Of a DNA stretch of 13,955 nucleotides, positions 671 through 13,955 are shown piece by piece. Made by a program: the position numbers and the translations under genes. The notes under the pieces were generated by a model. The model saw only the letters and a program-made list of their open reading frames with translations. It did not search any database and was not told the DNA's origin. Positions within the stretch are counted from its first letter, which is position 1. Every line of letters starts with the position of its first letter. The DNA comes from Escherichia coli (GTDB taxonomy: Bacteria > Pseudomonadota > Gammaproteobacteria > Enterobacterales > Enterobacteriaceae), in the NCBI RefSeq assembly GCF_003334765.1, contig NZ_QOWT01000055.1; one strand, written 5' to 3'.

Positions 671-3067
671 ATGCACGAAAAGAACATCGCCCTGCTTTGT
701 GATGAAGCCGACCGACTTTTGCAACTGAACATTAATCTGCTCCGGCAAATGGTTGAGGAGCCAGATGTGTTATCTGACAGTAAGAACGAAAACAGACTGC
801 TTTTTGATAAACAGAAAGCACTGAAAAGAATTGAGGAGCTGGAGGGCGAACAAATCAAAACCGCCCGCAGGGAGATGGTGCTGGCTGTTGTCGGCACGAT
901 GAAAGCAGGCAAATCAACCACCATCAATGCCATTGTGGGGCAGGAAATTCTGCCTAACCGTAACCGCCCCATGACCTCTGTACCGACGCTCATCCGCCAC
1001 GTTCCCGGAAAAACTGAGCCGGTTCTCCATCTGGAACATATTCAGCCTGTCCGCAATTTATTAATCACACTGCAGGAAAAACTCGCCACCCCGGCAGGAC
1101 AGCAGGTCGCACAGACCCTGCAGCAAACCGGGGATACCCGCGAACTGCTGGATATTCTGACGGATGATGGCTGGCTCAAAAATGAATACCACGGGGAGGA
1201 GGAAATCTTTACCGGACTGGCATCGTTAAACGATCTGGTTCGTCTTGCTGCGGCAATGGGGACTGAATTTCCTTTTGATGAATACGCAGAAGTGCAGAAA
1301 CTGCCGGTGATCGACGTGGAATTCAGCCATCTGGTGGGGATGGATGCATGCCAGGGAACACTCACACTGCTGGATACCCCCGGCCCTAATGAGGCCGGAC
1401 AACCGCAGATGGAAGTGATGATGCGGGATCAACTGCAGAAAGCCTCTGCGGTTCTGGCTGTGATGGATTACACCCAGATGAACTCAAAAGCGGATGAAGA
1501 CGTCCGTAAAGAGCTTAATGCCATTGCTGACGTATCAGCCGGCCGCCTGTTTGTACTGGTCAATAAATTTGATGAGAAAGACCGCAATGGCGATGGGGCA
1601 GATGCCGTACGCCAGAAAGTTCCGGCAATGCTGAACAGCGATGTGCTGCCCGCCTCCCGCGTTTATCCCGGATCCTCACGCCAGGCATACCTGGCTAACC
1701 GTGCGCTTCATGAGTTACGGAAAAACGGAACCCTTCCTGTTGATGAAGCCTGGGTCGATGATTTTATCAGAGGTGCCTTCGGTTGCATGAAAAAAGAATA
1801 CGTCTGTAAAGACAGTGAACTGGCAACTGAAGGGGCGACAGACCTGTGGGAAGGCTCACTTATCGATCAACTGATAACGGAAGTCATACAGAGCTCACAT
1901 TCCAGAGCTGCGGCACTGGCGGTTGACTCTGCCGCCGCAAAACTGATGCAGAATGCAGAAAATATCAGTGAATACCTGTTGTTACGCCATCAGGGGCTAC
2001 AGCAAAGCATTCAGTCACTGCAGTCGCATATCACCAGCCTGCTTGCGGATATCCGGGAAATCGCGGACTGTCAGGAGCAGATGACCACTGATGTCAGAAT
2101 GGCCATGGAGGAGATCGATACTAAAACCCGGGAATTACTGACGGGGGTCTGCACCTCACTGGAAGAGGAGCTGAATGACTATTTCAGAAGCGGTAAACGC
2201 AAAGAACAGCAAATGCTGGAGGAAGAAGACGCAGAACAACGAAGGTCTCAGTCCGGATTATGGGGGAAAATTTCTCAATGGTCCGGTATCAACAACCAGG
2301 GCCGGGAGGATTACAGGAAACGAGATTTTGCCCCGGACAGCCCCGAAATAAAATTCAGTGATCGCAGGGAAGCCCTTGAACTGATGACGCAAATCGAATC
2401 GACCGTGACCAGCCTGCACCGTGAGGCTGAAGCACAGTTCCGGCCTGAGCTGGAGAAAATCGTCAGCGGGATTGAAACAGGTTTTCGTGGCACGGCCCTG
2501 TACGCCACAGAAAACATTGCCGGTCGCATCAATGCCCGCCTGGAGGATGAGGGCTTTACCGTAAAAATCAGTTTTCCGGCAGTCAGCCAGTTACAGACCC
2601 GGCTCGCGGTAAAAATAAATCTGAGTGCGCTTATGGAGGAAAGAACGGAGACCGTCACCCGTCGCCGTCGGCAGAGTGGCGTATGGGGAACCGTTTGTCG
2701 ATGGTTTGGCACCAGTGACCTGGGCTGGGAAAACTATGACGAGGATGTGAGTCGCAGCGTGATCAATATCAACAAGGTCAGAGAGGAAGTTATGTCACTG
2801 ACCCGGGCATATTTCGGGGAGCTGCAGGCATCCATTGAGCAGGATATTAACCAGCCCGTCCGCCAGGAAATCGATGCCTTTTTCTGCGCATTCAGGGAGA
2901 AAGTTGAACAACTGCGTAACACGCTGATTCAGAGCTCTGAGGATCATAAACGCGATCAGCAGGCGCAGGAACGACTTACCGGGCGACTTCAGGCATTAAA
3001 TGAAAGGGTTCCTGAGCTCATTACTGACAGTAAGGCGCTGAGGGAAGAGCTGGAGACAATGCTGTGA
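671..3067 (+). CDS. Bacterial dynamin-like GTPase, paralogue of CrfC/RdcA (YjdA), 798 aa
   Basis: Long ORF with an AGGAAGG Shine-Dalgarno at 656-662. G1 GTMKAGKST is at aa 75-83 (nt 893-919), G3 DTPG at aa 235-238 and G4 NKFD at aa 298-301. The N-terminal GTPase region (LAVVGTMKAGKSTTINAIVGQEILPNRNRPMT...) closely resembles E. coli CrfC as I remember it. A long helical stalk and a C-terminal coiled coil follow. Confidence 0.9.
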   Translation: MHEKNIALLCDEADRLLQLNINLLRQMVEEPDVLSDSKNENRLLFDKQKALKRIEELEGEQIKTARREMVLAVVGTMKAGKSTTINAIVGQEILPNRNRPMTSVPTLIRHVPGKTEPVLHLEHIQPVRNLLITLQEKLATPAGQQVAQTLQQTGDTRELLDILTDDGWLKNEYHGEEEIFTGLASLNDLVRLAAAMGTEFPFDEYAEVQKLPVIDVEFSHLVGMDACQGTLTLLDTPGPNEAGQPQMEVMMRDQLQKASAVLAVMDYTQMNSKADEDVRKELNAIADVSAGRLFVLVNKFDEKDRNGDGADAVRQKVPAMLNSDVLPASRVYPGSSRQAYLANRALHELRKNGTLPVDEAWVDDFIRGAFGCMKKEYVCKDSELATEGATDLWEGSLIDQLITEVIQSSHSRAAALAVDSAAAKLMQNAENISEYLLLRHQGLQQSIQSLQSHITSLLADIREIADCQEQMTTDVRMAMEEIDTKTRELLTGVCTSLEEELNDYFRSGKRKEQQMLEEEDAEQRRSQSGLWGKISQWSGINNQGREDYRKRDFAPDSPEIKFSDRREALELMTQIESTVTSLHREAEAQFRPELEKIVSGIETGFRGTALYATENIAGRINARLEDEGFTVKISFPAVSQLQTRLAVKINLSALMEERTETVTRRRRQSGVWGTVCRWFGTSDLGWENYDEDVSRSVININKVREEVMSLTRAYFGELQASIEQDINQPVRQEIDAFFCAFREKVEQLRNTLIQSSEDHKRDQQAQERLTGRLQALNERVPELITDSKALREELETML

Positions 3068-4467
3068 CTTCACCATTTATTCAACAAATTGCTGATAACC
3101 GGGTATGTCAGGTACTCACCTGTCTTCCTGAAAAATTTGTGGTTGATTTCGCAAACGGAATCGATGTTGCACAGGAGCATATCCGCACGGCCGGAGAGCG
3201 CACGTTCTTCCGGCGTTTAAAAGAGGGGCTGACCGGCGAAGGCGCTGCACGGCAGAATGCCATCAATGCGTCGCTTGCACAGGGCGTTGAGGCGTCCCTG
3301 CGCTGGCTGACGGAGATGACAACGTCACTTGCCACCACAAACTACGCGATTACCCAGGTAAACGACAGGGTCAGTTCACTGGTCAGTGATACAGCCAGGC
3401 TGGCGCATTATTCCGCAGATACGCGGGAGCAGTTACTCACCCTGGCCGATCAGGTTCACCATAAACTGAATCATCTTGAAGAAAAACTCCACCGTGTTGA
3501 CCAGGTTCAGCGGGCGCAGTTACATCTTGAGCAGATATTCTCATGGTGGAGCGCCGGGCGATATGCGTCATTTTCCCCTGCCGGACGTTGTTATGTGGCA
3601 CTTGAAGAGCTTCGCTGGGGCGCGTTTGGTGATGTGATACGTCAGGGCGAAACAGGCCAGGTTAACCAGCTACTGGATATTCTCAGACATAAAGCATTAA
3701 CGCAGATGGCACAGGAGAGTGGCGGTAGTGCAACCGTGCGTCTGAACACTCTGGACTGGCTTGGTGGTCAGGGCCGGGAGCAGGCAGATAACGAGTGGCA
3801 TGACGCGATTAACTGGCTGGGAGACTGGTGCAGTGAAGAGCAGCATCCGGTGACCCGTGTGCGCGACCCGGGCCGCCGGGGATACACAAAACACATGCTG
3901 CGTCTGCGGCGGGCCGGAGAGATAAACGGAGAACATGTCCCTGAAATTATTCTGCTCAACTCTCATGACGGTACCTCCAGCTACCAGATGCTGCCGGGTT
4001 ACTTCAGGTTCGTCTGCCAGAACGGGTGCGTCTGTGGCCAGTCTCTGGGGGAAGTGCGTGTTCCACACCGGGGAAATGTAGTGGAGAAAGTTATCGAAGG
4101 GGCTTACGAGGTGGTGGGCGTGTTTGACCGGATAGAGGAGAAGCGTGATGCCATGCAGTCGCTGGTCCTGCCGCCACCGGCACGCCAGGCGCTGGCACAG
4201 GCGGCACTGACTTACCGTTATGGTGACGAACATCAGCCCGTCACCACCGCCGACATTCTGACGCCGCGACGCCGGGAGGATTACGGTAAGGACCTGTGGA
4301 GCGCATATCAGACCATCCAGGAGAATATGCTGAAAGGCGGGATTTCCGGTCGCAGTGCAAAAGGAAAACGTATCCATACCCGGGCCATTCACAGCATTGA
4401 TACCGACATTAAGCTCAATCGCGCATTGTGGGTGATGGCAGAAACGATGCTGGAGAGCCTGCGCTGA
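3064..4467 (+). CDS. Chimeric ORF: RdcB/YjcZ-like dynamin-partner domain (aa 1-263) fused in frame to the C-terminal ~204 aa of a DUF932 protein (YfjQ/YafZ family)
   Basis: The GTG start overlaps the upstream stop as GTGA (3064-3067), implying translational coupling. From nt ~3853 (TRVRDPGRRGYTKHMLRLRRAGE...WVMAETMLESLR) the translation matches the YfjQ/YafZ family from about residue 70 to the end, as I recall it. The N-terminal part is coiled-coil rich (RQNAINASL..., YSADTREQL...) like the YjcZ partner encoded next to crfC. Confidence 0.8.
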   Translation: MTSPFIQQIADNRVCQVLTCLPEKFVVDFANGIDVAQEHIRTAGERTFFRRLKEGLTGEGAARQNAINASLAQGVEASLRWLTEMTTSLATTNYAITQVNDRVSSLVSDTARLAHYSADTREQLLTLADQVHHKLNHLEEKLHRVDQVQRAQLHLEQIFSWWSAGRYASFSPAGRCYVALEELRWGAFGDVIRQGETGQVNQLLDILRHKALTQMAQESGGSATVRLNTLDWLGGQGREQADNEWHDAINWLGDWCSEEQHPVTRVRDPGRRGYTKHMLRLRRAGEINGEHVPEIILLNSHDGTSSYQMLPGYFRFVCQNGCVCGQSLGEVRVPHRGNVVEKVIEGAYEVVGVFDRIEEKRDAMQSLVLPPPARQALAQAALTYRYGDEHQPVTTADILTPRRREDYGKDLWSAYQTIQENMLKGGISGRSAKGKRIHTRAIHSIDTDIKLNRALWVMAETMLESLR

Positions 4468-6334: not shown

Positions 6335-6709
6335 ATGAAAACATTACCTGTATTACCCGGGCAGGCGACCAGTTCTCGCCCGTCTCCTGTTGAAATCTGG
6401 CAGATACTGCTGTCCCGACTGCTGGACCAGCACTATGGCCTCACACTGAATGACACACCTTTTGCCGATGAACGTGTGATTGAGCAGCATATTGAGGCAG
6501 GCATTTCACTGTGTGATGCGGTGAACTTTCTCGTGGAAAAATACGCGCTGGTGCGTACCGACCAGCCGGGATTCAGCGCCTGTACCCGCTCTCAGTTAAT
6601 AAACAGCATCGATATCCTCCGGGCTCGCAGGGCGACCGGCCTGATGACCCGCGACAATTACAGAACGGTAAATAACATTACCCTGGGTAAGTATCCGGAG
6701 GCGAAATGA
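6335..6709 (+). CDS. cbtA: Type IV toxin CbtA (YeeV), inhibitor of FtsZ/MreB polymerisation
   Basis: 124 aa (MKTLPVLPGQATSSRPSPVEIWQILLSRLLDQHYGLTLNDTPF...), near-identical to K-12 CbtA as recalled. It lies immediately downstream of cbeA. Confidence 0.95.
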   Translation: MKTLPVLPGQATSSRPSPVEIWQILLSRLLDQHYGLTLNDTPFADERVIEQHIEAGISLCDAVNFLVEKYALVRTDQPGFSACTRSQLINSIDILRARRATGLMTRDNYRTVNNITLGKYPEAK

Positions 6710-6900
6710 TGACACTGGAAGCCGACAGCGTTAACGTACAGGCGCTGGATATGGGGCACATTGTCGTTGACATTGATGGTGTTAATATCACTGAACTGAT
6801 TAATAAGGCCGCTGAAAAAGGTTATTCACTCCGCGTGGTGGATGACCGTGACTCTACCGAAACACCGGCAACTTATGCCAGCCCTCACCAGTTGCTGTAA
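6706..6900 (+). CDS. yeeW: YeeW-family small protein
   Basis: 64-aa ORF whose start overlaps the cbtA stop as ATGA (6706-6709). It matches K-12 YeeW/YpjJ family length and position. Confidence 0.8.
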   Translation: MMTLEADSVNVQALDMGHIVVDIDGVNITELINKAAEKGYSLRVVDDRDSTETPATYASPHQLL

Positions 6901-11319: not shown

Positions 11320-11521
11320 ACCCTCAGGTGTTTCAAATAGCTGTTCTTTTTACGGAAATACTTATGAACTGGCTGGAATAAAGTGCAAGAAAATGTGACT
11401 ACTACCTCATTTTTATCTGACATGATCTGTTGCCACTCGCTGCCAAATTGTCGCGCTAAAGCTGATTAGCACGGTGATATTTGATACTCTGGCAGACAGC
11501 AGAAATAACGGATTTAACCTA

Positions 11522-11570
11522 ATGATGAATGACGGTAAGCAACAATCTACCTTTTTGTTTCACGATTACG
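11522..11570 (+). pseudogene. sbcB: 5' stump of sbcB (exonuclease I), truncated after codon 16 by an insertion
   Basis: ATGATGAATGACGGTAAGCAACAATCTACCTTTTTGTTTCACGATTACG encodes MMNDGKQQSTFLFHDY, the N-terminus of K-12 SbcB. The expected continuation ETFG... is replaced by AQYP and a TGA at 11582-11584. The divergent position relative to dacD is as in K-12. Confidence 0.85.
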
Positions 11571-11624
11571 CGCAATACCCCTGAGAACCGCCATGAACAA
11601 GGGTTTCATGATTTGTGATTTTAG

Positions 11625-11648
11625 TTTGGTACGCAATTTGGTACGCAA
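11625..11648. repeat. Tandem direct repeat 2 x TTTGGTACGCAA
   Basis: Exact 12-bp units at 11625-11636 and 11637-11648, about 55 bp inside the foreign DNA from the sbcB junction. Confidence 0.9.
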
Positions 11649-11887
11649 CACTATTTTCACTTCAGCGGGTAGTCATCAAACTCACCATAACGAGCATCGT
11701 TGATGATGTATGCGATCACCACAAATATCACATCTGGACTAGTTCCGTCTTCATGCGCAGGTATCTGTTCACGCCTCCCTTTCTGCAAATCCTAAAGATG
11801 AGATTTTGGGGTTTTGGGATATCTTTTTCTCCTCAGTTCTCTATCCATTCTACAAAGCAGTAATGAACCATCACTATGTGAAAGTGA

Positions 11888-11959
11888 GGCATCCGCTACA
11901 TTAAGCGCAGAGAAATGATGCAGTGGTGGGCGGACTGGCTTGATGAAAAGGTGGAGTGA
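11888..11959 (+). pseudogene. 3' remnant of a P4-type (IntA/IntS-like) tyrosine integrase
   Basis: The in-frame translation GIRYIKRREMMQWWADWLDEKVE* carries the RR.MMQ.WADYLD C-terminal signature of P4-family integrases. An in-frame TGA lies immediately upstream (11885-11887). No catalytic domain is present. Confidence 0.6.
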
Positions 11960-12411
11960 ACCACCTTAGCTATCGAATGACACAAAGCCTTGTAATCCAG
12001 TGCAAAGTCTTGTGTGCCTCAGTTTTGTCTAAGCGTTCTACTGAAACATAGTAAAATCGATAACGGCTGGAGATCATTCAATATCCGCACTATTGACTCC
12101 CCTCCAATAAACCGTGTAACGTACACCGTTTATAAGACAACCAAACAATAATAGAGCGAGTGAAATCATCAGTCTCAAATACCATTTATTGACGCAATAC
12201 TATCCAGTTCTGAACTAAATGACATAATTCGGTAATTAAATTAATGCATCGACATACCTTATAGATACGCCCCAATAATATAATGCTAATCCTCTTTGAA
12301 TAGAAAACGTTCAATACTCCTCACTAAATAGCATAGTATTTATATCTTCCCTTACAAAAAAAATTAAGGCATAATAATAAGCTTCCTTTAACGCTAGATA
12401 TTGAGGTTTGT

Positions 12412-12540
12412 ATGTATCGCAGCATCGCAGCATTTAACACATTTTGCTTTTCATTGGTATTTATTTCATTAGCAAATGATATATATTACCAATTAAAACA
12501 CTCGTCATCTCTCAATACATATATTTCCTATGCATTTTGA
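12412..12540 (+). CDS. 42-codon ORF with one hydrophobic segment, in the same frame as the downstream 359-aa gene (possible severed N-terminus)
   Basis: GAGG at 12403-12406 lies 5 nt before the ATG. The translation is MYRSIAAFNTFCFSLVFISLANDIYYQLKHSSSLNTYISYAF*, with TGA at 12538-12540. Only three sense codons (GGG ATT GCC) separate that stop from the ATG at 12550, in the same reading frame. Confidence 0.35.
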   Translation: MYRSIAAFNTFCFSLVFISLANDIYYQLKHSSSLNTYISYAF

Positions 12541-12549
12541 GGGATTGCC

Positions 12550-13629
12550 ATGACATACAATACTATATTCAAAATATACATCTCAATTTTCATTTCTGTT
12601 ATTGTCACTATAATAGCCATATCCGGTATAACATTCCTGGGGGACAACTGGATTATTCCAGACACATATCATCTATTTAATACTGCAAAATATGATACCA
12701 CATTTTCACTCAGCGATATTTATTCCCAGCATAAAACATCTGTTTTATTTCTCTTTATAAACAAAGTGCTCTATAGCATAGGGTTATATTCTTTCTGTAT
12801 CGCGAACACAGCAATGATTATCTATGCTTTTTTCAAACATCACGAAGACCGTAGATTTTGTTTTGTGTTTTTGGTTTTGTCACCTCTATTTTTCATTAAT
12901 ATACCGTTACCATCCAAAGATATAATGGTGACATTTCTTTTTTGCATATGGGTATATGCAGTTTACTCTGAGGCAAGCCTGACAAAAACAATCCTGCTGT
13001 CTTTAATCATCCTATTAGTTAGAGATGGCTTTGGGATAATTTTAATTGCCACTTCAATTATCTTAAAACAAAAGATAATATATAAAGCACCAATACTACT
13101 GATTATAATAGCAACTCTCATCGCATCTTTAATATCGGATGTTTTGCCTAACTATGCAAATGACTTTTTTCTGTTCCAGAGAGTAATTGATATAGCCAAT
13201 GAATATAATAGTTCAAGTTATATTCTTCGTATATTTGGGAATGTAACAAATTTCTCATCACGCAACCCATTGATTACTGATAAGTCCACATTAAACATTA
13301 CATTTATGTGCTATACAATCACGGGAGTTACTATATTGAGTACATTCCTTCTTTCAATTAAAGCAATACGTTCAAATTATAAAAGTGATGTCAGAATATC
13401 ATTTTGTTATTTTTTAATTACCATTGCTTTTTCTATTTCACCACTTATTCAAGCAAGATACATGGCTCCGTTAATTTTAATGCCGACATTTTATAAGTGT
13501 ATTTCAAAAAAAGATGTCTTTATTTGCTATATGGCAAGCATATTTATCTCAATAATATTATCATTATTATATGTATATTTAGGTGTTTACCCTGAAAAAG
13601 CACCAGTGGAAAACTTTACAATAAATTAA
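12550..13629 (+). CDS. Polytopic inner-membrane protein (about 10-12 predicted TM segments), function unknown; Wzy/EpsG-like or GT-C/GtrC-like surface-polysaccharide enzyme is a hypothesis
   Basis: An uninterrupted 359-codon ORF in very AT-rich DNA, where random stops are frequent. GAGGGA at 12539-12544 lies 5 nt before the ATG. Hydrophobic stretches alternate with short charged loops, plus two larger loops (aa ~31-64 and ~200-250). No acyltransferase-3 N-terminal motif was seen. Confidence 0.8.
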   Translation: MTYNTIFKIYISIFISVIVTIIAISGITFLGDNWIIPDTYHLFNTAKYDTTFSLSDIYSQHKTSVLFLFINKVLYSIGLYSFCIANTAMIIYAFFKHHEDRRFCFVFLVLSPLFFINIPLPSKDIMVTFLFCIWVYAVYSEASLTKTILLSLIILLVRDGFGIILIATSIILKQKIIYKAPILLIIIATLIASLISDVLPNYANDFFLFQRVIDIANEYNSSSYILRIFGNVTNFSSRNPLITDKSTLNITFMCYTITGVTILSTFLLSIKAIRSNYKSDVRISFCYFLITIAFSISPLIQARYMAPLILMPTFYKCISKKDVFICYMASIFISIILSLLYVYLGVYPEKAPVENFTIN

Positions 13630-13646
13630 CAAGAGAAAACCACCTA

Positions 13647-13696
13647 TGGCACCATCTCACAATAATAATATGATAAACATATTAGAGATGGTGCTA
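13647..13696. terminator. Stem-loop between convergent genes (possible shared terminator)
   Basis: GCACCATCTC (13649-13658) and GAGATGGTGC (13685-13694) are exact reverse complements, extendable by T-A and G-T pairs. The loop is 26 nt and AT-rich. No clear U-tract. Confidence 0.35.
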
Positions 13697-13747
13697 CTCC
13701 GAGCCACCCACAAGCAACACATTGAATTTATTCCAAAATAATTCATC

Positions 13748-13955
13748 TTATACTTCATAAAGGGCAGGCCAGATGACATCAGGCGCGGTGCTGGTATCTG
13801 TTGCCGCCACCGCGTCAATGTAATCCAGCACAGCGTTAAGCCGGGTGGTTTCTGCCTGCGTCAGCTTCCGCCCGGCCTGTAATTTCAGCTGAATCAGACT
13901 GATGGAAGCCATTGCAGCATCAATCAGCGACTGGCGCTTTACTTCTGCCGCGTCT
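13748..13955 (-). CDS. Phage tail fibre assembly protein (Tfa family), C-terminal 68 aa (5' end outside the window)
   Basis: The minus-strand translation is DAAEVKRQSLIDAAMASISLIQLKLQAGRKLTQAETTRLNAVLDYIDAVAATDTSTAPDVIWPALYEV*, with stop at 13750-13748. The ...L..W..Y...L..VDTSTAPDI.WP ending is the hallmark of TfaE/TfaQ-type chaperones. Confidence 0.8.
   Translation of the reverse strand, partial: DAAEVKRQSLIDAAMASISLIQLKLQAGRKLTQAETTRLNAVLDYIDAVAATDTSTAPDVIWPALYEV

What the first reader, a model, noticed from the sequence alone, without database searches (positions are those of the whole stretch)
12550..13629. AT-rich prophage moron encoding a 359-aa polytopic membrane protein in the classical lysogenic-conversion position
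**Seen directly.** DNA from ~11950 to ~13740 is strikingly AT-rich compared with the flanking core genes (by eye roughly a quarter to a third G+C; not computed). It still carries an unbroken 359-codon ORF with about 10-12 hydrophobic segments and two larger hydrophilic loops. The gene is convergent with the tail-fibre assembly gene and lies between it and the att junction.

**Established knowledge.** In P22, Sf6, SfV/SfX and related temperate phages, O-antigen-modifying genes (gtrABC, oac) occupy exactly this slot between the tail fibre/spike genes and attP. They are also AT-rich polytopic membrane proteins. Phage-borne Wzy polymerases are known too.

**Inference.** This is a candidate serotype-converting or superinfection-exclusion factor, but no gtrA/gtrB partners and no acyltransferase-3 signature are present. 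It may therefore belong to an uncharacterised family.
Basis: partly seen in the sequence, partly recalled or inferred. Interest (0 to 1): 0.66.

Follow-up and report, generated by a model that had tools for sequence, protein, structure and literature searches.

The report
Phage-borne substitute O-antigen polymerase candidate
A gene left behind by a decayed prophage in E. coli O86 strains encodes a membrane glycosyltransferase of an unnamed family that most likely links O-antigen repeat units in place of the strain's own broken polymerase, which could explain why O86 bacteria make two different surface polysaccharides from one building block.

Summary
An intact 359-codon ORF (12550-13629, 30% GC) lies between a tail-fibre-assembly gene and an att junction (30-bp core, 11541-11570). 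The element is a 6.6-kb prophage remnant in sbcB, not a whole prophage.

Distant relatives sit in Wzx-dependent polysaccharide clusters, beside flippase, GT11 fucosyltransferase and GT2. None has gtrA/gtrB.

In 5,426 complete E. coli genomes, the ORF occurs in 74, and all 74 carry the O86 O-antigen cluster. Every listed carrier has a poly-G slip in the cluster's own wzy (G9 in all but one, which has G8). The six O86 genomes without the ORF were checked in five cases: four have the intact G11 tract, one G10. Two of those were confirmed to have an intact wzy and an empty att site.

Best reading (about 0.55): a phage-borne repeat-unit polymerase that replaces the resident Wzy. Main rival: a GtrC-like side-branch transferase.

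An octanucleotide repeat in a leader ORF (2, 3 or about 32 copies) suggests phase-variable translation.

All of this is computational.

The parts
11513..11570 (+). Duplicated 5' end of sbcB (ATGATGAATGACGGTAAG...). Its last 30 bp (11541-11570) are the att core repeated at the other end of the element.
   Evidence: Window 11400-11570 matches the dacD-sbcB intergenic region and the sbcB start in >5,000 genomes. A 30-bp overlap of the two alignment blocks appears between the empty-site genome Res13 and the carrier BE2-5.
11571..12096 (.). attP-proximal arm, shared at 93-95% identity with unrelated prophages integrated at sbcB. It contains a 12-nt direct repeat, TTTGGTACGCAA x2, at 11625-11648.
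   Evidence: Hits H27-H29 cover window ~11406-12096 and then diverge into nleG7/lambdoid tail genes or a P22-like tailspike. Tandem repeat found.
12097..12411 (+). AT-rich 5' region of the moron (promoter not identified). It is homologous to L006 ~6380-6740.
   Evidence: GC 0.29-0.37. No ORF in any frame. Promoter-like sites are not above chance. Same sequence lies upstream of the 97% copy in L006.
12412..12540 (+). Leader ORF: 42 codons, own GAGG Shine-Dalgarno. It is in the same frame as the main ORF. Its TGA (12538-12540) overlaps the main gene's Shine-Dalgarno.
   Evidence: Sequence. Also present in L006, expanded to 122 codons and ending at the same stop. Frame analysis.
12416..12433 (+). 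Octanucleotide tandem repeat ATCGCAGC, 2.2 copies here. There are 3 copies in strain JCH8249 and 31-32 perfect copies in L006.
   Evidence: TRF. Direct reading of L023 and L006.
12497..12545 (+). Predicted RNA stem. AUCUCUCAA (12497-12505) pairs with UUGAGGGAU (12537-12545), which sequesters the main gene's Shine-Dalgarno.
   Evidence: RNA fold of 12400-12580: MFE -36.6 kcal/mol, z = -3.17, 1 of 200 shuffles as stable.
12550..13629 (+). 359-aa polytopic GT-C-fold glycosyltransferase: the candidate O-antigen repeat-unit polymerase.
13748..13955 (-). 3' end of the convergent phage tail-fibre-assembly gene, which runs off the window.
   Evidence: PHROG tail assembly chaperone / tail fiber assembly hits, E 5e-18. 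Annotated as a 197-aa 'tail fiber assembly protein' in BE2-5.

Best explanation
The ORF encodes an inner-membrane GT-C-fold glycosyltransferase. Its active site (Asp38 in the first periplasmic loop, plus conserved Arg/Asn/Gln/Tyr in the other periplasmic loops) faces the periplasm.

I propose it is a Wzy-type repeat-unit polymerase that a temperate phage brought in as a moron. It would take Und-PP-linked O86 pentasaccharide units flipped by the resident Wzx and join them into O-antigen chains. In doing so it replaces the cluster's own Wzy, which in all carriers examined has a slipped poly-G tract. In the carrier examined in detail this is G11 to G9, truncating the protein at residue ~183 of 466.

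All GT-C enzymes of this structural type that have been characterised are inverting. The predicted product is therefore the beta-linked form of the O86 polymer, while the resident Wzy would make the alpha-linked form.

Expression may be switched on and off. Slippage of an 8-nt repeat in a leader ORF decides whether leader translation reaches, and melts, a stem that hides the main Shine-Dalgarno sequence.

Shown: ORF, fold, conservation, genomic contexts, co-occurrence statistics, repeat polymorphism.
Inferred: substrate, polymerase activity, linkage, the coupling switch.
For: 2. Topology. 13 of 15 conserved residues are periplasmic. K+R make up 29% of cytoplasmic loops and 8% of periplasmic loops.
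3. Context. In all 10 informative contigs that hold distant relatives (GC 28-67%), the neighbours are polysaccharide-synthesis genes. A Wzx flippase is adjacent on three of the contigs with relatives, representing two distinct relatives. GT11+GT2 are adjacent in four relatives, with Gmd, Glf, GT4 and methyltransferases elsewhere. No GtrA/GtrB appears anywhere. Another polymerase-like gene (Wzy_C) appears in only one contig.
4. The O86 unit itself is built with a GT11 alpha-1,2-fucosyltransferase.
5. Co-occurrence. 74 of 5,426 complete genomes carry the ORF, and all 74 carry O86-type wzy. Six O86 genomes lack the ORF (80 records, 154 places).
6. wzy state. In the listed rows, all 55 carriers have the short wzy tract (54 G9, 1 G8). 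All 5 listed non-carriers have G11 (4) or G10 (1).
7. Two non-carriers were inspected directly. Both have an intact 466-aa wzy and an empty dacD-sbcB site.
8. Carrier BE2-5 and non-carrier Res13 differ by 12 substitutions in 24 kb. Three of the 12 fall in the 1.4-kb wzy.
9. Selection. dN/dS is 0.14 against a 97% copy in another phage. The ORF is intact in a remnant that has lost nearly everything else.
10. Literature. O86 strains are reported to make two O-polysaccharides by different polymerisation of the same unit (Yi et al. 2006, title cited in PMC7685785 and PMC4815439). The beta1->4 form is listed in PMC7685785 and the alpha form for O86:B7 in PMC4815439. Bona fide Wzy of clan GT-C3 have an N-terminal long loop with conserved Asp and Arg (PMC10920833). 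Phage-borne Wzy are known in P. aeruginosa D3 (PMC4815439) and A. baumannii (PMC9241936).
Against: - No sequence or profile link to any established Wzy family. hhalign gives 0.3% to O86 Wzy, 0.1% to O104 Wzy (GT122/EpsG) and 3.1% to a 30-sequence EpsG profile.
- No conserved His, unlike clan GT-C3.
- In one relative's cluster, a separate Wzy_C protein is present.
- The ORF/wzy-slip association probably traces to a single ancestral haplotype, so it counts as roughly one evolutionary event.
- Homopolymer lengths can be miscalled in long-read assemblies. The G10 non-carrier and the G8 carrier are ambiguous.
- A G9 tract might still give some full-length Wzy through transcriptional slippage.
- There are no expression or LPS data.
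- Which O86 structure belongs to which genotype is unknown.
Confidence: 0.55

Rival explanations
1. A GtrC-like periplasmic side-branch glycosyltransferase. It would add a single sugar from an Und-P-sugar donor to the O86 antigen or to another envelope glycan. The Und-P-sugar would come from host or other-prophage GtrA/GtrB-type proteins.
For: - The best structural matches (ALG12, Pmt4, PIG-M, ArnT, ALG3/6, PimE) all use lipid-P-monosaccharide donors.
- The gene sits where gtr operons sit in converting phages. K-12 CPS-53 shows gtrABS next to tail-fibre-assembly genes.
- The remnant carries CPS-53-like yfdR/yfdT genes.
Against: - No gtrA/gtrB next to it, next to the 97% copy in L006, or next to any of the distant relatives.
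- hhalign to K-12 GtrS gives 0.4%.
- The relatives lie inside Wzx-dependent clusters, where a polymerase is expected, and usually no other polymerase is visible.
- This reading does not explain the exclusive link to O86 genomes with a slipped wzy.
- If wzy is truly dead, there would be only one O unit per LPS molecule to modify.
Confidence: 0.25
2. A GT-C enzyme that acts on a different lipid-linked glycan, for example ECA, colanic acid, a capsule or the LPS core/lipid A. Under this reading its link to O86 is only hitch-hiking with a ~26-kb linked haplotype.
For: - The ORF lies ~26 kb from the O-antigen cluster, so linkage alone could produce the association.
- The carrier haplotype looks monophyletic: 99.9-100% identity over wzy and the ORF.
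- ArnT-like enzymes modify lipid A.
Against: - Distant relatives are embedded in repeat-unit clusters with a flippase and fucosyltransferase, not in lipid A/core loci.
- The wzy tract has not reverted in the 54 of 55 listed carriers that keep G9, although reversion by slippage should be easy.
- Purifying selection acts on the ORF.
Confidence: 0.1
3. A functionless or unexpressed passenger: a relic of prophage decay with no current role.
For: - It sits in a decayed remnant.
- No promoter was found above chance.
- The repeat tract has collapsed to 2 copies.
- PGAP calls only a truncated version.
Against: - A 1,080-bp ORF at 30% GC stays open and >=99% identical in 74 genomes. Only one shows a possible indel.
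- dN/dS is 0.14 versus the copy in another phage.
- It keeps a good Shine-Dalgarno sequence and a conserved catalytic-type residue set.
Confidence: 0.07

Closest known systems
Phage-borne O-antigen/capsule polymerases: P. aeruginosa phage D3 Wzy-beta (with Iap), Salmonella epsilon15 beta-polymerase, A. baumannii phage-encoded Wzy (PMC4815439, PMC9241936, PMC13228068)
   Same: A polymerase gene carried by a temperate phage outside the polysaccharide locus. It takes over polymerisation of the host's own repeat unit while the resident polymerase is silenced, and so changes the inter-unit linkage.
   Different: - Those proteins are recognisable Wzy (Wzy_C or CAZy GT12x/13x families). This protein matches none of them.
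- Here the resident Wzy is silenced by a poly-G frameshift, and no inhibitor peptide such as Iap was found.
- The function here is inferred, not shown.
- No such case was found in the literature for E. coli. PMC7685785 only speculates about one.
CAZy clan GT-C3 polymerases (GT122/123/124, Pfam EpsG), e.g. E. coli O104 Wzy (PMC10920833)
   Same: - Similar size (~360-390 aa).
- Long conserved loop near the N-terminus carrying a 'PD' motif with a conserved Asp.
- Conserved Arg residues on the periplasmic face.
- Located in Wzx-dependent clusters.
- Predicted inverting mechanism.
   Different: - No Pfam EpsG hit for any of 63 members.
- Profile-profile probability is only 3%.
- The conserved His of the clan is absent.
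GT-C (A-type) glycosyltransferases with solved structures: ArnT, PMT, ALG3/6/9/12, PimE, PIG-M, AglB/PglB/STT3
   Same: - First periplasmic loop with two short helices and an acidic catalytic-type residue.
[quoted passage not shown]
   Different: - 5-12% sequence identity.
- It lacks their soluble periplasmic or luminal domains.
- Donor and acceptor are unknown.
- Its genomic context is repeat-unit polysaccharide synthesis.
GtrC serotype-converting glucosyltransferases (gtrABC of SfV/SfX/P22; K-12 CPS-53 GtrS)
   Same: AT-rich polytopic membrane protein encoded next to tail-fibre genes and att in a temperate-phage genome. Predicted to alter the O-antigen.
   Different: No gtrA/gtrB partners. 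No detectable similarity to GtrS. Relatives are chromosomal cluster genes, not phage genes.
Simple-sequence-repeat contingency loci for LPS genes (e.g. tetranucleotide or octanucleotide repeats in Haemophilus LOS genes; from my own knowledge)
   Same: A tandem repeat whose unit is not a multiple of three lies just 5' of a surface-glycan gene, and copy number differs between isolates.
   Different: The repeat lies in a separate leader ORF rather than in the enzyme's own reading frame, so any switch would work through translational coupling. This kind of switch is unusual in E. coli. It is untested.

Membership tests
GtrC (serotype-specific transferase of a gtrABC operon) | Encoded with gtrA (flippase) and gtrB (Und-P-glucose synthase) immediately upstream | tested here: not met
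   No ORF in any frame of 11320-12549. No GtrA/GtrB Pfam hits in the window, in L006 or next to relatives. K-12 CPS-53 shows the expected gtrA-gtrB-gtrS layout for contrast.
GtrC (serotype-specific transferase of a gtrABC operon) | Sequence similarity to a known GtrC | tested here: not met
   hhalign of the family profile against K-12 GtrS/YfdI gives probability 0.4%. Sensitivity is low because the target is a single sequence.
Classical Wzy / O-antigen ligase superfamily (CAZy clans GT-C1 and GT-C2; Pfam Wzy_C, O-ag_pol_Wzy) | Match to the Pfam/NCBIfam polymerase models | tested here: not met
   No hit for the protein or for 62 relatives. hhalign to O86 Wzy gives 0.3%.
Classical Wzy / O-antigen ligase superfamily (CAZy clans GT-C1 and GT-C2; Pfam Wzy_C, O-ag_pol_Wzy) | Long conserved periplasmic loop near the C-terminus; fold like WaaL/SEDS | tested here: not met
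   [not shown]
Wzy in the functional sense (repeat-unit polymerase of a Wzx/Wzy pathway) | Encoded in a Wzx-dependent repeat-unit cluster as the polytopic non-flippase protein | tested here: met
   This is true of the distant relatives in 9 of 10 informative contigs. One contig also has a Wzy_C gene. The window copy is phage-borne, but it is confined to O86-cluster genomes.
Wzy in the functional sense (repeat-unit polymerase of a Wzx/Wzy pathway) | Required for O-antigen ladder formation; uses Und-PP-linked repeat units | not testable with these tools
   Needs LPS gels of deletion and complementation strains, or an in-vitro assay.
CAZy clan GT-C3 (GT122/123/124; Pfam EpsG) | Long loop close to the N-terminus with a conserved Asp, plus two conserved Arg | tested here: met
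   EL1 30-64 carries invariant D38. R158 and R303 are invariant; R211 and R238 are nearly so. The feature list comes from PMC10920833.
CAZy clan GT-C3 (GT122/123/124; Pfam EpsG) | Conserved His | tested here: not met
   Each His of the protein is conserved in at most 2 of 63 sequences.
CAZy clan GT-C3 (GT122/123/124; Pfam EpsG) | Detectable profile similarity to family members | tested here: inconclusive
   hhalign of A2 against a 30-sequence EpsG/GT122 profile gives probability 3.1%, E 0.014, over 217 columns. The two 'PD' motifs align in register. No Pfam EpsG hit.
GT-C fold, A-type (ArnT/PMT/ALG/OST-like) | Structural similarity of the TM core; first outer loop with short helices and an acidic residue | tested here: met
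   [not shown]
Acyl_transf_3 O-acetyltransferases (Oac) | Pfam PF01757 match | tested here: not met
   No hit. A truncated Acyl_transf_3 gene lies upstream of the 60% homologue in L002, but it is a separate gene.
Simple-sequence-repeat phase-variable locus | Repeat unit not divisible by three, in or just before a coding region, with copy number differing between isolates | tested here: met
   8-nt unit with 2.2 copies (window, L005), 3 copies (JCH8249) and 31-32 copies (L006).
Simple-sequence-repeat phase-variable locus | Copy number switches expression on and off | not testable with these tools
   There is only a model. The leader ORF reaches the -9 stop when copies = 2 mod 3, and the SD is predicted to be sequestered.

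The most novel reading that the evidence does not exclude
This protein founds a fourth, so far unclassified lineage of bacterial repeat-unit polymerases, with an ArnT/OST-like (A-type GT-C) fold.

A phage delivered it to an E. coli O86 haplotype, which is now widespread (it includes ST38-type clinical isolates). There it replaced the resident retaining Wzy after a poly-G slip.

This replacement would be the genetic basis of the long-known O86 dichotomy: the same pentasaccharide unit polymerised in two ways, beta1->4 to fucose or alpha to galactose.

Its translation would be phase-variable, through an octanucleotide repeat that sets the frame of a coupled leader ORF.
Probability: 0.3. Interest if true: 0.85.

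Novelty: new variant of a known kind. Interest (0 to 1): 0.72.

Why it matters
- **In-silico serotyping.** E. coli O types are called from wzx/wzy in the galF-gnd cluster. If a gene 26 kb away in a prophage remnant does the polymerising in most sequenced O86 strains, 'O86' covers two chemically different antigens. The 74 carriers among 80 O86 genomes include many ESBL and carbapenemase-era human isolates. The two antigens present blood-group-B-like epitopes differently.
- **An old puzzle becomes testable.** The 2006 finding that one O86 unit is polymerised in two ways could be checked with one deletion and one complementation.
- **A candidate answer elsewhere.** The same idea may apply to near-identical clusters with different linkages, such as O90/O127 and O118/O151.
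- **A new polymerase family.** It would add a family with an A-type GT-C fold to the known polysaccharide polymerases. That bears on how inverting polymerases evolved, and on glyco-engineering.
- **An unusual switch.** The repeat-controlled leader ORF would be a rare example of simple-sequence phase variation in E. coli.

Tried and rejected
- **Direct family searches.** Pfam, NCBIfam and PHROG searches of the protein found nothing.
- **Phage records.** tblastn against 50,697 phage records found nothing.
- **Word-indexed protein searches.** They returned only 2-3 clusters.
- **First AlphaFold run.** With 2 sequences it was unusable, at pLDDT 41.
- **Other structure and sequence searches.** PDB sequence search: no hit. 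BFVD viral fold search: nothing meaningful. AFDB50 was unavailable.
- **Contig scans.** The GTDB genome-contig scan found no relative. The metagenome scan failed with the broad alignment and gave only 5 short contigs with a narrower one.
- **The '122-aa ORF' upstream in L006.** I first suspected it was GtrA. It is an artefact of the 8-nt repeat array, with a spurious Gp5_trimer_C hit.
- **Degraded gtrA/gtrB or oac in the 1.2-kb leader.** Rejected: there are no ORF remnants, and most of that DNA is the duplicated sbcB start plus a shared attP arm.
- **Divergent copies in other E. coli serogroups (e.g. O90).** None found at blastn sensitivity.
- **Promoter and terminator scans.** Not above chance.
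- **Primary O86 papers.** I could not obtain Yi 2006, Guo 2005 or Woodward 2010. The assignment of linkages to strains therefore rests on two secondary sources and my memory.
Full report
**1. The observation**

The window holds an unbroken ATG-initiated ORF at 12550-13629 (+), 359 codons. G+C is 0.30 in the ORF and 0.32 over 11950-13740, against 0.51 for the first 11.3 kb and 0.54 for the last 215 bp.

The rest of the window is E. coli chromosome. It holds a CP4-44-like island (dynamin-like GTPase, YjcZ/DUF932, antirestriction, RadC), then tmaR, yeeA, sbmC and dacD.

Downstream of the ORF, on the opposite strand, the 3' end of a tail-fibre-assembly gene begins at 13748.

RefSeq annotates only a 271-aa 'hypothetical protein' starting at Met89. 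The long form is correct for two reasons. The first 88 residues are conserved in a 60%-identical homologue from the initial Met-Thr onwards. They also contain the family's invariant Asp38.

**2. The element**

In complete genomes the ORF lies in a 6,623-bp insertion between dacD and sbcB. The order is: ORF, tail-fibre assembly, a partial tail protein, small hypothetical genes, yfdR- and yfdT-like genes, an HTH protein and a tyrosine integrase next to sbcB.

I compared a carrier (BE2-5) with an empty-site genome (Res13-Lact-PEB01-20). This gives a clean insertion flanked by a 30-bp duplication, which maps to window 11541-11570, the fifth to fourteenth codons of sbcB.

The next ~500 bp (to about 12030-12096) are shared at 93-95% identity with unrelated prophages at the same site. 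After that they diverge. An EHEC lambdoid phage carries nleG7 there, and a P22-like phage runs straight into its tailspike.

What survives here is a remnant, however, not a prophage. The 1.2 kb between dacD and the ORF has no ORF in any frame and no trace of gtrA, gtrB or an acyltransferase.

**3. The protein family**

Pfam, NCBIfam and PHROGs give nothing, and no phage record encodes it. The word-indexed search of 5.8 billion proteins found only the protein's own cluster (319 member sequences) and one 60% homologue.

An exhaustive HMMER scan of 1.84 billion cluster representatives found 83 relatives at E<1e-3 and 49 at E<1e-10. Most are 360-400 aa and 16-37% identical.

Across 63 full-length members:
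- Invariant positions: D38, N86, R158, D159, G259, R303 and Y304.
- Nearly invariant positions: P121, K123, R211, N231, N234, R238, S295 and Q301.

None of the 63 belongs to any Pfam or NCBIfam family. The only trace is one weak GT87 hit.

**4. Structure**

With the 63-sequence alignment, AlphaFold2 gives pLDDT 94.3 and pTM 0.92. The earlier 2-sequence run was useless.

Helix positions and charge distribution give 11 TM segments, N-in/C-out. K+R make up 29% of cytoplasmic loop residues and 8% of periplasmic ones. Thirteen of the fifteen conserved positions face the periplasm.

Asp38 opens the first of two short helices in the first periplasmic loop. This is where A-type GT-C enzymes carry their catalytic acid (established knowledge of ArnT, PglB, PMT and ALG6).

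The protein is therefore a periplasm-facing glycosyltransferase that uses a lipid-linked donor.

**5. What the relatives do**

Every informative contig that carries a distant relative is a polysaccharide-synthesis cluster:
- epimerase-GT4-methyltransferase-[X]-GT11-GT2-GT4-epimerases
- Wzx-[X]-methyltransferase-GT11-GT2
- [X]-GT11-GT2
- Gmd-Wzx-DUF268-GT11-GT2-[X], seen in two samples
- GT2-[X]-methyltransferase
- [X]-GT4
- GT4-[X]-ManC ... initiating transferase, Wzy_C, Wzz
- four further metagenome contigs (28-67% GC) with Glf, NTP-transferase, GT4, epimerase, GT2, methyltransferase and AsnB-like neighbours

No GtrA or GtrB was seen anywhere.

In these clusters X is the polytopic protein that is not the flippase. 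That is the place of the repeat-unit polymerase. Only one cluster holds a second candidate (a Wzy_C protein, which could be a ligase).

**6. The E. coli population pattern**

The ORF occurs in 74 of 5,426 complete genomes, always >=99% identical and always at this site.

The first carrier I inspected has the O86 O-antigen cluster ~26 kb away (gmd-fcl-gmm-manC-manB-wzx-wbnI-wzy-GT-alpha-1,2-fucosyltransferase). Its wzy is flagged 'frameshifted; internal stop'. The lesion is a poly-G tract of 9 instead of 11, which truncates the 466-aa Wzy after ~183 residues.

O86-type wzy is present in 80 genomes. A chimeric query (ORF + wzy) returned 80 records and 154 places. So all 74 ORF carriers are O86, and six O86 genomes lack the ORF.

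Among the 60 rows listed:
- All 55 carriers have the short tract: 54 with the G9 span and one with G8.
- All five non-carriers have a longer tract: four with G11 and one with G10.

I inspected two non-carriers directly. Both have an intact wzy (WP_158642084.1) and an empty dacD-sbcB site.

One of them, Res13, is nearly the same haplotype as carrier BE2-5, with 12 substitutions in 24.2 kb. Three of the 12 fall in the 1.4-kb wzy, about five times the expected number. This fits relaxed constraint on a real pseudogene.

The ORF itself is under purifying selection. Against the 97% copy in IMG/VR contig L006 there are 19 synonymous and 10 non-synonymous changes, giving dN/dS 0.14.

**7. Link to the literature**

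[quoted passage not shown] 2006, Carbohydr Res 341:100). I could only see the title, through the reference lists of PMC7685785 and PMC4815439.

The Liu et al. review gives O86 a beta1->4 Wzy linkage. Taylor et al. list O86:B7 with an alpha linkage. The resident O86:B7 Wzy has been shown to be an active polymerase (cited in PMC12004945).

[quoted passage not shown] I found no paper reporting one, nor any on the wzy slip in ST38/O86:H18.

Meitil et al. 2024 (PMC10920833) classify Wzy-type polymerases into 14 CAZy families in three clans. Clan GT-C3 (GT122-124, inverting) has 'an architecture completely different' from the others, with the long loop near the N-terminus and conserved Asp, His and two Arg.

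That description fits this family except for the His. But I could not show homology:
- The O104 Wzy (GT122, Pfam EpsG) gives hhalign probability 0.1% as a single sequence.
- A 30-sequence EpsG profile gives 3.1% (E 0.014), although the alignment does put the two 'PD' loop motifs in register.
- The classical O86 Wzy gives 0.3%, and K-12 GtrS gives 0.4%.

**8. Mechanism proposed**

Shown:
- a periplasm-facing GT-C enzyme
- relatives in the polymerase position of Wzx-dependent, fucose-containing repeat-unit clusters
- strict confinement to O86 genomes whose own polymerase gene has a slipped poly-G tract (G9 in all but one listed carrier)
- purifying selection

Inferred: the protein polymerises Und-PP-linked O86 units in place of the resident Wzy. 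Characterised GT-C enzymes of this structural type invert. It should therefore make the beta-linked O86 polymer, while the resident Wzy makes the alpha-linked one. This mirrors the alpha-to-beta conversions by phages D3 and epsilon15.

I put this at about 0.55. The chief rival (0.25) is a GtrC-like side-branch transferase. The best structural matches use lipid-P-monosaccharide donors, which favours it. The absence of GtrA/GtrB everywhere, the cluster contexts and the wzy pattern all count against it.

The population association is probably one evolutionary event on one haplotype, so it is suggestive rather than statistical proof. Poly-G lengths from long-read assemblies also need checking.

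**9. A possible switch**

Twelve bases upstream... more exactly, 138 nt upstream of the main ATG, a leader ORF starts at 12412 with its own GAGG. It contains an 8-nt repeat (ATCGCAGC) present in:
- 2.2 copies here
- 3 copies in strain JCH8249
- 31-32 perfect copies in L006

When the copy number is 2 mod 3 (as in the window, and by frame also in L006), the leader ORF ends at a TGA that overlaps the main gene's Shine-Dalgarno, 9 nt before the ATG. Otherwise it stops 77 or 112 nt upstream.

The leader RNA folds more stably than shuffled controls (z -3.2). A 9-bp stem pairs the Shine-Dalgarno (12537-12545) with 12497-12505, which lies inside the leader ORF. A ribosome finishing the leader ORF would open that stem.

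This is a model for phase-variable translational coupling and is untested. In the E. coli remnant the tract has collapsed to two copies, so it is probably nearly locked.

The resident wzy carries a slippery tract of its own, with G8 to G11 observed.

**10. Verdict**

The specific Gtr/Oac analogy is not.

The best-supported reading is a phage-borne substitute O-antigen polymerase of an unclassified GT-C family. That makes it a new variant of a known kind of system. It has a concrete, cheap experimental test and a direct bearing on an unexplained O86 structural dichotomy and on in-silico serotyping.

Noticed in passing
L014:14016-14026 (BE2-5 O86 wzy; intact-allele positions ~509-519), outside the window: The resident O86 wzy contains a homopolymeric G tract that differs between genomes. 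Direct alignment shows G9 in BE2-5 against G11 in Res13. Match spans imply G9 in 54 listed carriers, G8 in one carrier (1424KP, which would be back in frame minus one Gly), G11 in four non-carriers and G10 in one non-carrier (JE86-ST02). It looks like a slippage-prone on/off site in its own right, or in part a long-read homopolymer error.
   Followed up: partly
window 12416-12433; L006:6748-7001; L023 (JCH8249): An octanucleotide tandem repeat lies in a leader ORF upstream of the gene, with 2.2, 3 and 31.8 copies in different sources. An 8-nt unit shifts the frame with each copy, so the leader ORF ends 9, 77 or 112 nt before the main ATG.
   Followed up: partly
window 12550 vs 12814: RefSeq/PGAP annotates the gene from Met89 (271 aa, WP_139499480.1). 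This cuts off TM1, the first periplasmic loop and the invariant Asp38. In most carrier genomes the 5' part is left unannotated.
   Followed up: yes
window 11400-12096; L003, L004: The 5' end of sbcB is an integration hot spot used by at least three different prophage types that share a ~500-bp attP arm: this remnant, an EHEC lambdoid phage with the T3SS effector gene nleG7 in the same cargo slot, and a P22-like phage with no cargo.
   Followed up: partly
window 11625-11648: A perfect 12-nt direct repeat, TTTGGTACGCAA x2, lies in the shared attP arm. It may be a pair of integrase arm-type binding sites.
   Followed up: no
window ~11895-11960 (+): One reading frame gives '...KRREMMQWWADWLDEKVE*'. 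By eye this resembles the C-terminal end of P4-type integrases. It may be a relic of an older integrase gene inside the shared arm. I did not verify this with any search.
   Followed up: no
L002:133-411: The only close homologue (P0002, 60% identity, from SRA run SRR29999890) lies downstream of a truncated Acyl_transf_3 (O-acetyltransferase-type) gene in GC-richer DNA. It has no octanucleotide repeat. This is another hint of a glycan-modification neighbourhood.
   Followed up: no
window 3064-4467: A 467-aa ORF combines a YjcZ-like domain (residues 26-267) with a DUF932 domain (263-456). In other genomes DUF932 is a separate ~273-aa protein, so this is either a fusion or a deletion junction in the CP4-44-like island.
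   Followed up: no
literature (PMC7685785), not in the window: The E. coli O90 and O127 clusters are almost 100% identical, yet the polymers differ in inter-unit linkage (beta1->4 vs alpha1->2 on the same fucose-containing backbone as O86). O118/O151 is a similar pair. A second polymerase outside the cluster, like the one proposed here, could explain these pairs. No copy of this ORF was found outside O86 among complete genomes.
   Followed up: partly
NZ_AP021935.1 (WP2-W18-ESBL-10): This one carrier shows +3 nt in the leader region and +2 nt inside the ORF, and the ORF is unannotated there. It is either a real inactivation or an indel-prone assembly.
   Followed up: no
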